Shown in pieces: positions 17,587 to 17,799 of a DNA stretch of 64,000 nucleotides. This DNA is from a virus (taxonomy: Duplodnaviria; Heunggongvirae; Uroviricota; Caudoviricetes). The stretch lies in IMG/VR virus record IMGVR_UViG_2609460332_000008; one strand, 5' to 3'. The translations under genes were made by a program, and so were the position numbers. The number at the start of each line of letters is the position of its first letter. The stretch's first letter is position 1. Below the pieces are notes generated by a model. That model searched no databases, was not told the origin of the DNA, and saw only the letters and a program-made list of their open reading frames with translations.

Positions 17587-17635
17587 GTCAGTCTCCGTCG
17601 TTTGGGGTTACCGACGGTCAGTATGCGGAAGGCAG

Positions 17636-17661
17636 AAAAAAAGCCGGATTTACCGGCTTCA
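17636..17661 (-). promoter_or_regulatory. Dyad element AAGCCGG-TAAAT-CCGGCTT followed by T7, copy 1, about 50 bp upstream of the protease gene; intrinsic terminator and/or activator site
   Basis: Identical 26-mer recurs at 25371..25396 upstream of the endolysin gene, with further similarity in the flanks. Confidence 0.6.
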
Positions 17662-17750
17662 CTGAAAACGGGAAAATACCCCCTTCAAAACCCCTTCAAA
17701 AACGCCACAGCATCTTCAAAAACGTCAGAATGCACATTCACGCCATCAGA

Positions 17751-17779
17751 ATAAAAAACGCGTTTCTGATGCGTTTCAG
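17751..17779 (-). terminator. Rho-independent terminator after the F-like gene
   Basis: Minus-strand AAACGC-atcagaaac-GCGTTTTTT directly after the stop at 17800. Confidence 0.55.
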
Positions 17780-17799
17780 GGGGATTTGCGGCGGGAGGG

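What the first reader, a model, noticed from the sequence alone, without database searches (positions are those of the whole stretch)
17587..17799. Conserved dyad module upstream of the head operon, with phased A-tract repeats
The 214-bp gap between the F-like and protease genes holds a terminator after F, three CTTCAAAA repeats spaced roughly one and two helical turns apart (17682..17721), and the perfect dyad AAGCCGG-TAAAT-CCGGCTT followed by T7 (17636..17661), then TGCCTTCCGCATAC about 50 bp before the gene start. The same dyad-T7-TGCCTCCGGCAC arrangement recurs upstream of the endolysin gene. A symmetric site at two late-operon starts fits an activator-binding site, possibly doubling as the terminator of the preceding operon. 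The Mu strong gyrase site also maps to this central region.
Basis: partly seen in the sequence, partly recalled or inferred. Interest (0 to 1): 0.6.

Follow-up and report, generated by a model that had tools for sequence, protein, structure and literature searches.

The report
Mu-like late promoter with gyrase site
The gap in front of the head-protease gene of this Mu-like prophage holds close copies of two well-studied phage Mu elements: the central DNA-gyrase site, and a Mor-activated promoter built into a terminator hairpin. This makes it an ordinary but well-preserved regulatory region, not a new kind of element.

Summary
The 19-bp dyad plus T-run occurs exactly twice, at 17641-17659 and 25376-25394. 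Both copies sit inside the longest direct repeat of the prophage (49 nt, 86% identity).

[quoted passage not shown] It shares 13-14 of 16 bases of the mapped Mor-binding element and 12 of 12 bases of the 3' arm plus T-run. The spacing to a -10-like hexamer is also the same as in Pm.

The prophage encodes one activator, 63% identical to Mu Mor and 32% to Mu C, and has no C gene. I therefore read both copies as Mor-dependent late promoters (P-lys and P-I) fused to intrinsic terminators.

Relatives show what is constrained. Some lineages lose the 3' arm and T-run at P-I but keep AGTGAAGCCGGTTAATCC and the -10.

The three TTTTGAAG repeats align with the right arm of the Mu strong gyrase site (profile hit E 7.7e-9). 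They lie at 47.8% of the 33.6-kb prophage.

The proposed "terminator after F" is weak and not conserved.

A side finding: the untranscribed promoter spacer is complementary to the ribosome-binding region. This suggests that read-through transcripts are not translated.

Verdict: new member of known kinds, modest interest.

The parts
207..33776 (-). Mu-like transposable prophage, 33,570 bp. Ends are TGTATTGATTCAC... and ...GCCGCTTCA. The 5-bp target duplication GCTGG lies at 33781-33777 and 206-202.
   Evidence: read the ends directly, and searches give the Mu ends for comparison. The closest public copy, E. coli KFu019, sits at a different insertion site with duplication ACCAT.
25401..25850 (-). 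Gene for the only Mor/C-family activator of the prophage (149 aa).
   Evidence: Pfam Mor, E 3.6e-30. It is 63% identical to Mu Mor and 32% to Mu C. There is no second homologue in the window.
25383..25398 (-). Site B: predicted Mor-binding element AATGA-AGCCGG-TAAAT (-51..-36 of P-lys).
   Evidence: 13 of 16 bases identical to Mu Pm -51..-36 in an ungapped alignment. Mu numbering was checked against PMC4390567.
25371..25395 (-). Site B: hairpin GAAGCCGG-TAAAT-CCGGCTTT with a 7-T run (25377-25371). Intrinsic terminator of the early (Mor) transcript.
   Evidence: Terminator scan. Folding energy -12.6 kcal/mol, z -3.4. Invariant in all 40 protein-anchored endolysin loci.
25355..25360 (-). Site B: -10-like hexamer CACCAT. 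Predicted start of transcription near 25347.
   Evidence: It lies at the same distance (25 nt) from the loop centre as TATCCT in Mu Pm. Relatives have CAAAAT, CACTAT, CACACT or TAAATT at the same place.
25311..25365 (-). Site B: long hairpin that can form only in read-through RNA. It pairs the promoter spacer and -10 region with the Shine-Dalgarno sequence AGGTG (25325-25321).
   Evidence: Read-through RNA folds at -22.8 kcal/mol, z -4.1. RNA starting at the predicted +1 folds at only -5.7. Median duplex z is -4.15 over 48 unique relatives.
17741..17771 (-). Weak; no function assigned.
   Evidence: Not listed by the terminator scan. Folding energy -13 kcal/mol, z -2.3. Not conserved in relatives.
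17683..17722 (-). Three T-tract/TTTTGAAG repeats, the counterpart of the right arm of the Mu strong gyrase site. By alignment, any cleavage site would lie near 17745-17725; it is not identifiable from sequence.
   Evidence: The repeats align with Mu TTTTTTAAAACG / TTTTTAAACC / TATTTAACGG. The same block is 95.7% identical in a Mu-type prophage of E. coli SE11. It lies at 47.8% of the prophage length.
17648..17663 (-). Site A: predicted Mor-binding element AGTGA-AGCCGG-TAAAT (-51..-36 of P-I).
   Evidence: 14 of 16 bases identical to Mu Pm. Kept in the relatives that lost the 3' arm and T-run (L190-L198).
17636..17660 (-). Site A: hairpin GAAGCCGG-TAAAT-CCGGCTTT with a 7-T run (17642-17636). 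Intrinsic terminator of the lys-to-F transcript.
   Evidence: Terminator scan. Folding energy -12.6 kcal/mol, z -2.8. Compensatory variants occur in L189 and L008; the hairpin has decayed in L005-7 and L190-198.
17620..17625 (-). Site A: -10-like hexamer CATACT. Predicted start of transcription near 17612. There is no -35 hexamer (TCCGGC lies at that position).
   Evidence: Ungapped alignment to Mu Pm. It also aligns with the CAAACT that I read as the -10 hexamer of Mu P-I.
17584..17617 (-). Leader: inverted repeat CCGTCG (17617-17612) / CGACGG (17600-17595) that overlaps the Shine-Dalgarno GGAG (17596-17593), followed by the protease ATG (17586-17584).
   Evidence: Relatives have CTGTCCGTC/GACGGACAG and Mu P-I has CTGCTCA/TGAGCAG at the same place.

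Best explanation
The 213-bp gap is the counterpart of the G-I intergenic region of phage Mu. Read along the minus strand, it holds two separate devices.

**1. Gyrase-site arm (17722-17683 and neighbouring bases).** The T-tract/TTTTGAAG repeats are the homologue of the right arm of the Mu strong gyrase site. In Mu that arm wraps around DNA gyrase. The site sits at the centre of the transposable genome and helps bring the two prophage ends together for replicative transposition.

**2. Promoter-terminator cassette (17663-17612).** It has the anatomy of the Mu middle promoter Pm:
- a 16-bp Mor element, AGTGA-AGCCGG-TAAAT, at -51..-36;
- no -35 hexamer;
- a -10 hexamer, CATACT;
- a start of transcription near 17612.

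The G+C-rich spacer of the Mor element, with the bases that follow it, also forms an 8-bp hairpin followed by 7 T. That hairpin ends the transcript coming from upstream.

The same cassette sits right after the mor gene, in front of the endolysin gene. The prophage has a Mor orthologue and no C protein. The likely programme is therefore two-step. The early transcript makes Mor and stops at cassette B. Mor then switches on P-lys (lysis, terminase, portal, F) and P-I (protease, capsid and downstream genes).

**What is shown and what is inferred.** Shown by computation: the sequence identity, the geometry, the conservation pattern, the hairpin energies and the central position. Inferred from Mu experiments: Mor binding, the start sites, termination and gyrase action.
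For: **Dyad module**
- The dyad occurs only twice, inside the longest repeat of the prophage.
- A profile of this gap built from the window and 6 relatives, with Mu left out, was searched against the whole Mu genome. The best hit was 17887-18050 (E 7.7e-9). This is the stretch immediately after the annotated gyrase cut (17879/80), running on through P-I. The second hit was 9166-9203 (E 2.2e-6), which is Pm just after mor.
- Ungapped identity to Mu Pm over -56..-8 is 36/49 for each site. The Mor element matches 14/16 and 13/16. The 3' arm plus T-run matches 12/12. From +1 to +40 identity is only 10/40.
- Mu numbering was verified against -57G, -56T and -55..-53 AAA in PMC4390567. Mor footprints -56 to -33, and the dyad element lies at -51 to -36 (PMC4287176).
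- The activator is 63% identical to Mu Mor, with a nearly identical helix-turn-helix. It is the only Mor/C homologue. A Mu gp18 homologue follows the endolysin gene, so site B is the positional orthologue of Pm.
- In IMG/VR, 103 of 125 exact hits to the core lie in one of three contexts: mor-to-endolysin, F-to-protease, or Mu mor-to-gp18.
- Protein-anchored relatives: all 40 endolysin loci keep the hairpin and T7. At the protease site, L189 and L008 carry compensatory stem changes. L005-7 and L190-198 lose the 3' arm and/or T-run but keep the 5' half and a -10.
- Hairpin energy is -12.6 kcal/mol, the same as in Mu.

**Gyrase site**
- The repeats align with the Mu arm.
- The same block sits after a Mu-like ATAAAATCA core in a Mu-type prophage of E. 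coli SE11.
- A TTTAAAC tandem lies upstream of the protease gene in 16 of 28 relatives, against 3.5% expected.
- The site is at 47.8% of the prophage, against 48.7% in Mu.
- The Mu right arm is essential and carries bend-inducing repeats (PMC10052514).
Against: - There are no transcript ends, no protein binding data and no gyrase cleavage data for this prophage.
- The Mu cleavage core is not recognisable here. Only about 8 of 22 bases match, by my own reading.
- The periodicity test was not significant.
- TTTAAAC arrays also occur at other intergenic sites in Pasteurellaceae and Shewanella Mu-like prophages. They may therefore serve another protein, or simple DNA bending.
- The left arm of the Mor element (AGTGA or AATGA) is a poorer mirror of the right arm than in Mu.
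- No Mor element was found upstream of com/mom or of the tail genes. The two-promoter programme leaves mom unexplained.
- That the Mu hairpin is the early-operon terminator (t9.2, Stoddard & Howe 1990) rests on my memory. I could not retrieve a paper that says so.
Confidence: 0.72

Rival explanations
1. The two dyads are only intrinsic terminators. They were copied from one place to the other by recombination, and the late promoters lie elsewhere.
For: The anatomy is that of a classic terminator: an 8-bp stem, a 5-nt loop, 7 T and -12.6 kcal/mol. Both copies lie downstream of a gene end.
Against: - Conservation extends beyond the hairpin on both sides, to CA(G/A)TG upstream and to a hexamer at a fixed distance downstream.
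- Lineages L190-198 and L005-7 destroy the terminator but keep the 5' half and the -10.
- The module matches a footprinted Mor site.
- The module stays with the endolysin gene when an extra ORF is inserted after mor.
- No other sigma-70-like promoter is called near either gene start.
Confidence: 0.08
2. The activator binds the full 19-bp G+C-rich palindrome AAGCCGG-N5-CCGGCTT as a symmetric operator.
For: - The palindrome is perfect at both sites.
- L189 (AAGGCGG/CCGCCTT) and L008 (AAACCGG/CCGGTTT) change both arms symmetrically.
- The Mor footprint reaches -33.
- A 2025 preprint reports tetramers covering about 26 bp.
- Bases just downstream of the dyad element are needed for activation (PMC2582627).
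Against: - Mu mutational and footprint data place the element at -51..-36 (PMC4390567, PMC4287176).
- L190-198 lack the 3' arm entirely yet keep the rest.
- Symmetric changes are equally expected for an RNA hairpin.
Confidence: 0.12
3. The TTTTGAAG/TTTAAAC repeats are binding sites for a phage or host DNA-bending protein, or an upstream promoter enhancer, and are not a gyrase site.
For: Similar tandem arrays occur at several operon starts in Pasteurellaceae and Shewanella Mu-like prophages. [quoted passage not shown] The Mu cleavage core is not conserved in the window.
Against: - The block is colinear with the experimentally defined Mu SGS right arm.
- In E. coli SE11 it sits next to a Mu-like cleavage core.
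- It is central in the genome.
- In the Mu papers I could read, only gyrase is described as acting at this site.
- The repeats lie at -110 to -71, which is far for an UP element.
Confidence: 0.18
4. The repeat is a recent chance duplication or gene conversion with no function at one of the two sites.
For: 86% identity over 49 nt within one genome.
Against: Both sites carry the module in relatives whose flanking proteins are only 60-70% identical. The duplication is therefore old and maintained.
Confidence: 0.02

Closest known systems
Phage Mu middle promoter Pm with its Mor-binding element (Artsimovitch & Howe 1996; Ma & Howe 2015, PMC4390567; Mo & Howe 2014, PMC4287176)
   Same: - Ungapped sequence match (36/49 over -56..-8).
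- A 5-6-5 element with a G+C-rich spacer at -51..-36.
- No -35 hexamer, and a -10 hexamer 25 nt from the loop centre.
- A hairpin plus 7 T embedded in the promoter.
- Location right after mor (site B).
- A Mor orthologue as the activator.
   Different: - There are two copies here, and they drive late genes (endolysin operon and head operon) directly. In Mu, Pm drives a middle operon that encodes C.
- The left arm is AGTGA or AATGA, where Mu has AGTAA.
- The -10 hexamers differ.
- Nothing has been tested experimentally.
Phage Mu strong gyrase site, SGS (Pato et al. 1990; Oram & Pato 2004; Oram et al. 2006; reviewed in PMC10052514)
   Same: - Central position in a transposable prophage.
- Location between the head-morphogenesis genes and the protease gene, just upstream of P-I.
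- A right arm with three T-tract repeats at the same spacing, alignable to Mu.
   Different: - The repeat unit is TTTTGAAG, where Mu has TTTTAAAC.
- The sequence around the expected cleavage point is not conserved.
- There is no G gene upstream.
- Gyrase binding and cleavage are untested.
Phage Mu C-dependent late promoter P-I
   Same: Same genomic position. Alignable -10 region (CAAACT versus CATACT). A leader inverted repeat just before the protease start codon.
   Different: The C box (TTAT-N5-6-ATAA; CATAAC in Mu) is replaced here by a Mor-type element. The prophage has no C gene.
Transcript-specific masking of the ribosome-binding site, as in the phage T4 lysozyme gene e (McPheeters et al. 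1986; cited from memory)
   Same: A hairpin that hides the ribosome-binding site can form only in transcripts that start upstream. The late promoter starts inside or after the 5' arm.
   Different: Predicted only from folding and covariation; start sites are not mapped. In this prophage the 5' arm is the promoter's own spacer and -10 region.

Membership tests
Mu Pm-type, Mor-dependent promoter | 16-bp element (two 5-bp arms and a G+C-rich 6-bp spacer) centred at -43.5 | tested here: met
   AGTGA-AGCCGG-TAAAT (17663-17648) and AATGA-AGCCGG-TAAAT (25398-25383) match Mu AGTAA-AGCCGG-TTAAT at 14/16 and 13/16 bases. The position is set by ungapped alignment. The start site itself is inferred.
Mu Pm-type, Mor-dependent promoter | Recognisable -10 hexamer, no -35 hexamer | tested here: met
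   CATACT and CACCAT lie at -13..-8, and TCCGGC occupies the -35 position. The sigma-70 scan, which needs both hexamers, calls no promoter at either site.
Mu Pm-type, Mor-dependent promoter | A cognate Mor protein encoded by the same phage | tested here: met
   63% identity to Mu Mor with a conserved helix-turn-helix. Pfam Mor E 3.6e-30.
Mu Pm-type, Mor-dependent promoter | A/T-rich proximal UP subsite at -57..-52 | tested here: inconclusive
   GTTTTC (site A) and TTAATC (site B) stand where Mu has GTAAAC. They are A/T-rich but not the A-tract of Mu.
Mu Pm-type, Mor-dependent promoter | Mor binding and Mor-dependent initiation | not testable with these tools
   Needs a footprint or EMSA, reporter fusions and 5' end mapping.
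Intrinsic (Rho-independent) terminator | G+C-rich stem-loop followed directly by a U-tract, on the transcribed strand, downstream of a gene end | tested here: met
   8 pairs (5 G-C), a 5-nt loop and 7 T, at -12.6 kcal/mol. The hairpin begins 6 nt after the mor stop codon and 140 nt after the F stop codon.
Intrinsic (Rho-independent) terminator | Pairing maintained in evolution | tested here: inconclusive
   Invariant at all 40 endolysin sites. At the protease site there are two compensatory variants (L189, L008), but the pairing is lost in L005-7 and L190-198.
Intrinsic (Rho-independent) terminator | Transcripts end at the U-tract | not testable with these tools
   Needs 3' end mapping (Term-seq).
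Mu-type strong gyrase site | Central position in a transposable prophage | tested here: met
   47.8% of 33,570 bp, against 48.7% in Mu.
Mu-type strong gyrase site | Right arm homologous to that of Mu, with repeated T-tract motifs | tested here: met
   Profile hit on Mu 17887-18050, E 7.7e-9. Alignment. Bridging sequence in E. coli SE11.
Mu-type strong gyrase site | Defined gyrase cleavage site | tested here: inconclusive
   The 22 nt before the first repeat share about 8 bases with Mu, by my own reading. Gyrase sites are too degenerate to call from sequence.
Mu-type strong gyrase site | Helically phased bendability of the arm | tested here: inconclusive
   WW-dinucleotide periodicity was not significant for the window (109 of 2000 shuffles reached it). 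It was not significant for the Mu arm either (304 of 2000).
Mu-type strong gyrase site | Promotes prophage replication and end synapsis | not testable with these tools
   Needs deletion or replacement genetics.
Mu C-dependent late promoter | C box TTAT-N5-6-ATAA centred at -43.5, and a C gene | tested here: not met
   There is no such box upstream of the protease or endolysin genes. There is no C homologue other than the Mor gene itself.

The most novel reading that the evidence does not exclude
The cassette is a three-part, self-insulating switch that has spread within Mu-like genomes.

1. A terminator stops incoming transcription.
2. The same DNA is the docking site for the activator.

As a result, any transcript that leaks through the terminator is folded shut and not translated. 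Only Mor-initiated transcripts make endolysin or protease.

In this lineage the cassette has also replaced the C-dependent P-I, next to an independently exchangeable gyrase-site arm.
Probability: 0.4. Interest if true: 0.5.

Novelty: new member of a known kind. Interest (0 to 1): 0.3.

Why it matters
It shows how a Mu relative without the C protein can run its late programme: by reusing the Pm-type, Mor-dependent promoter at both the lysis and the head operons.

It gives natural "mutants" that separate the activator site from the terminator hairpin.

It shows that the gyrase-site arm is a conserved block, exchanged independently of promoter type, across many Mu-like prophages.

The predicted masking of the ribosome-binding site in read-through transcripts would explain how lysis and protease genes placed directly behind a leaky early terminator stay silent. 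That prediction is easy to test.

None of this changes the established picture of Mu regulation.

Tried and rejected
- **Window source.** I first took the window to be E. coli KFu019 (100% identity over 801 bp). Reading the ends showed a different insertion site, with target duplication GCTGG where KFu019 has ACCAT. KFu019 is therefore only the closest public copy, and its annotation was used only as a guide.
- **Helical periodicity.** The WW-dinucleotide test was not significant, even for the real Mu SGS. I dropped it as evidence.
- **Rfam.** The only hit was sroD at 22 bits against a gathering score of 50, E 0.067. I treat it as noise.
- **Phage collection.** No annotated phage covers this gap. 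The best record, a Klebsiella phage, matches only part of the flanking F-gene sequence and carries no annotation.
- **Sakai Sp18.** I looked for this experimentally tested gyrase site among close E. coli matches. It is not among them, so this lineage's site is untested.
- **Literature on the Mu early terminator.** I found nothing on t9.2 overlapping Pm. The point stays a recollection.
- **Key gyrase-site papers.** Oram & Pato 2004 and Oram et al. 2006 are not held.
- **More Mor elements.** A search of the prophage with up to 3 mismatches found none beyond the two sites.
- **com/mom upstream region.** It shows neither a Mor element nor the Mu C box.
- **"Terminator after F".** I considered and rejected it as a conserved feature.
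Full report
**1. What is in the sequence**

All genes around the finding run on the minus strand. These are the F-like minor head gene (18564-17800; Pfam Phage_Mu_F), a 213-bp gap (17799-17587), the protease gene (17586-16624; Pfam Mu-like_Pro) and the major head gene gpT.

Read on that strand, the gap contains the following, in order:
- a weak inverted repeat after F (17771-17741);
- three TTTTGAAG repeats, each preceded by a T-tract (starts 17721, 17701 and 17690; spacing 20 and 11);
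- the perfect dyad AAGCCGG-TAAAT-CCGGCTT (17659-17641), running into a 7-T tract (17642-17636);
- CTGCCTTCCG, then CATACT (17625-17620);
- a second inverted repeat, CCGTCG...CGACGG (17617-17595), which overlaps the Shine-Dalgarno GGAG;
- the ATG.

The dyad occurs with no mismatch only here and at 25394-25376. The two copies lie inside a 49-nt direct repeat of 86% identity, the longest in the prophage.

**2. Context**

The prophage spans window 207-33776 (33,570 bp). It has Mu-type ends and a 5-bp target duplication, GCTGG (compared with the Mu ends).

Its ends and com-mom are close to Mu (com-mom and the right end about 89% identical). Its structural genes have no close match among deposited phages. 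Near-identical prophages occur in 49 of 5,426 complete E. coli genomes. The closest, in strain KFu019, sits at a different insertion site.

The prophage has one Mor/C-family gene (25850-25401). Its product is 63% identical to Mu Mor and 32% to Mu C. No second homologue exists in the window. The GH108 endolysin gene follows after 85 bp, and a homologue of Mu gp18 follows that.

**3. The dyad module is a Pm-type promoter**

I built a profile of the gap from the window and six enterobacterial relatives, leaving Mu out. I searched it against the whole Mu genome on both strands.
- The best hit was Mu 17887-18050 (E 7.7e-9).
- The second hit was Mu 9166-9203 (E 2.2e-6). This is the sequence ACAGTAAAGCCGGTTAATCCGGCTTTTTTTACG, which begins at the mor stop codon.

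That second stretch is the Mu middle promoter Pm. The literature places a 16-bp Mor element there, with two 5-bp inverted repeats and a G+C-rich 6-bp spacer, centred at -43.5 (PMC4390567). The dyad element spans -51 to -36, and Mor footprints -56 to -33 (PMC4287176).

I fixed the numbering from the paper's own statements (-57G, -56T, -55 to -53 AAA). This puts +1 at Mu 9224 and makes the element AGTAA-AGCCGG-TTAAT.

Anchored on the loop centre, Mu Pm and the two window sites align without a gap:

| Region | Mu vs site A | Mu vs site B |
|---|---|---|
| -56..-8 | 36/49 | 36/49 |
| Mor element (-51..-36) | 14/16 | 13/16 |
| 3' arm plus T-run (-35..-24) | 12/12 | 12/12 |
| +1..+40 | 10/40 | 10/40 |

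In all three sequences a -10-like hexamer starts 25 nt after the loop centre: TATCCT in Mu, CATACT at site A and CACCAT at site B. By this geometry the predicted start sites are near 17612 and 25347. The -35 position holds TCCGGC, so there is no -35 hexamer.

**4. What evolution keeps**

*Exact-pattern scan.* Scanning IMG/VR for the 17-nt core gave 125 hits. Of these, 103 lie in one of three contexts: mor-to-endolysin, F-to-protease, or Mu-type mor-to-gp18. Most of the 22 others lack the T-run.

*Protein-anchored sets.* These are unbiased with respect to the DNA motif, so they are more telling.
- All 40 endolysin loci (60-99% protein identity) keep AAGCCGGT(A/T)AATCCGGCTTTTTTT unchanged. This holds even where an unrelated ORF has been inserted between mor and the module.
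- Upstream of the protease gene the picture is mixed:
  - the window type and L003/L013 keep everything;
  - L189 (AAGGCGG/CCGCCTT) and L008 (AAACCGG/CCGGTTT) change both arms in a compensatory way;
  - L005-7 have a mismatched stem and no T-run;
  - L190-198 have no 3' arm and no T-run, yet keep AGTGAAGCCGGTTAATCC and a CACACT hexamer.

Changes fall mainly in the 6-bp spacer. The right arm T(A/T)AAT never changes.

This is the pattern expected if the 5' half is a protein site needed at every copy. The hairpin and T-run would then be a second function. That function appears indispensable after the early operon and dispensable between the two late operons.

Only these two sites in the prophage match the Mor element with up to 3 mismatches.

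**5. Terminator**

Each copy folds into an 8-bp stem with a 5-nt loop at -12.6 kcal/mol, against -12.2 for Mu. Each is followed by U7. Site B begins 6 nt after the mor stop codon.

My recollection is that the Mu hairpin is the early-operon terminator t9.2 (Stoddard & Howe 1990). I could not retrieve a source for this.

**6. The repeats are the gyrase-site arm**

The RefSeq record of Mu marks the gyrase cut at 17879/80, in the G-I gap. The top profile hit starts 7 nt after it.

The window's TTTTTGAAG-N11-TTTTTGAAGGGGTTTTGAAGG aligns with Mu's TTTTTTAAAACG-N10-TTTTTAAACCGGTATTTAACGG. The enterobacterial relatives show TTAAACG-N10-TTTTTGAACGGGGTTTGAACGG.

A Mu-type prophage of E. coli SE11 links the two. 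It has the G gene, a C-type P-I and a Mu-like ATAAAATCA core. It also carries the window's TTTTTGAAG block at 95.7% identity over 46 nt.

A tandem TTTAAAC-type motif lies within 450 nt upstream of the protease gene in 16 of 28 terminase-anchored relatives from several bacterial families. The expectation is 3.5% per locus, and the loci are not independent.

The site lies at 47.8% of the prophage length. In Mu the right arm is essential and carries bend-inducing repeats, and the central position is needed for timely replicative transposition (PMC10052514, PMC3820752).

Caveats:
- the sequence at the expected cut is not conserved;
- a simple periodicity test is uninformative;
- similar arrays occur elsewhere in some Mu-like genomes.

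**7. The TGCCT...CCGCA motif and the leader**

The bases between the T-run and +1 are not transcribed from the predicted promoter. They are complementary to the ribosome-binding region.

*Site B (endolysin).* RNA that reads through from upstream (25370-25301) folds at -22.8 kcal/mol (z -4.1), with the Shine-Dalgarno sequence paired. RNA starting at 25347 folds at only -5.7.

*Relatives at the endolysin site.* Over 48 unique upstream sequences, the -24..-1 segment pairs with the leader far better than its shuffles do. The median z is -4.15, and 39 of 48 fall below -2. The stem sequences differ between lineages (ATGCCTGC/GCAGGCAT, GGCACC/GGTGCT, CCGGCAC/GGTGCCG).

*Site A (protease).* The effect is weaker (z -1.3 in the window; 8 of 26 relatives below -2). 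The RNA from the predicted start is unusually unstructured. Mu P-I and Mu Pm have an inverted repeat in the same place.

This suggests that leak-through transcripts are translationally silent, as I recall for T4 gene e. The idea depends on the inferred start sites.

**8. Mechanism, with status**

Shown here:
- the identity and geometry relative to Mu Pm;
- a single Mor orthologue;
- the conservation pattern;
- the hairpin energies;
- colinearity with the Mu gyrase-site arm;
- the central position.

Inferred from Mu experiments:
- Mor binds at -51..-36 and recruits RNA polymerase;
- transcripts start near 17612 and 25347;
- incoming transcripts end at the T-runs;
- gyrase wraps the repeat arm.

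Open: what drives com/mom, which has neither a Mor element nor a C box.

**9. Comparison and novelty**

The elements are members of known kinds: the Mu Pm/Mor promoter, an intrinsic terminator and the Mu-type gyrase site. The site is not a C-dependent promoter. It has no C box, and the prophage has no C gene.

Every related locus I fetched that has a detectable Mor/C gene has only one within about 8 kb of the terminase gene. A single-activator programme is therefore common.

What is specific here is that a Pm-type cassette occupies both the lysis and the head-operon starts. The relatives also provide natural dissections of it.

Interest is modest. The most novel reading that survives is the three-part insulating cassette with ribosome-site masking.

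Noticed in passing
window 25311-25370 and 17584-17635 (minus strand); relatives L199-L238, L170-L198: The untranscribed promoter spacer and -10 region is complementary to the Shine-Dalgarno/start-codon region. A strong hairpin (-22.8 kcal/mol at the endolysin site) can therefore form only in read-through RNA. Different stem sequences in different lineages keep the pairing (median duplex z -4.15 over 48 unique sequences).
   Followed up: partly
window 25401-25470 (minus strand; C-terminus of the Mor orthologue): The Mor orthologue ends ...KYQPDLFYPSPNLPHPVRRPPRRP. It therefore carries the C-terminal QPDLF motif that a 2026 paper (PMC12867686) reports as the sliding-clamp-binding motif of Mu C. 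Mu Mor has QPSLL at that position. The protein thus pairs a helix-turn-helix close to Mu Mor's with a C-like tail.
   Followed up: no
L239 2490-2670 (E. coli SE11, NC_011415.1): A Mu-type prophage with a G gene and a C-type P-I carries the same TTTTTGAAG x3 block, 95.7% identical over 46 nt, next to a Mu-like ATAAAATCA core. The gyrase-site arm seems to be exchanged independently of promoter type.
   Followed up: partly
L018-L027 (Shewanella and Pasteurellaceae Mu-like prophages), several intergenic positions: Tandem arrays of TTTAAAC with a 10-11 nt period occur upstream of the protease gene. They also occur upstream of the terminase gene, in the early region and after the capsid gene. L024 460-510 has at least six copies. 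Their role is unknown.
   Followed up: no
window 1157-1320 (minus strand, upstream of com/mom): The com-mom genes are about 89% identical to Mu. The region upstream of them differs from Mu Pmom and has neither a Mor element nor the Mu C box. It keeps several GATC sites. What activates mom in a prophage without C is unexplained.
   Followed up: partly
L003, L005-L008, L013 (between mor and the endolysin gene): Relatives carry an extra small ORF between mor and the promoter cassette. In some it looks like a membrane protein and in others like a secreted protein. The cassette stays attached to the endolysin gene.
   Followed up: no
L218 about 1371-1460; L054 and L060 leaders: L218 has a partial tandem duplication of the Pm-type module. 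The endolysin leaders of L054 and L060 contain an inverted copy of the core (CCGGATTAACCGG).
   Followed up: no
L001 2519-2550 (KFu019 copy of the prophage, 194-225 bp inside its left end) and Mu 185-225: A pair of TTTGAAG/TTTTGAAC repeats, like those of the central site, lies near the left end, downstream of the repressor gene. It is present in Mu and in the near-identical KFu019 copy of this prophage. I did not check the window itself at that place.
   Followed up: no
window about 35000-64000 (plus strand): A second, lambda-like prophage lies next to the Mu-like one. It encodes a gpA-type large terminase (43094-45019), a lambda-family portal (45219-46820) and a gpJ tail-tip protein (57857-61339).
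   Followed up: partly
window 202-206 and 33777-33781: The prophage is flanked by the 5-bp duplication GCTGG. The otherwise near-identical prophage of E. coli KFu019 is flanked by ACCAT between ygbI and ltnD. These are independent transposition events of the same phage.
   Followed up: yes
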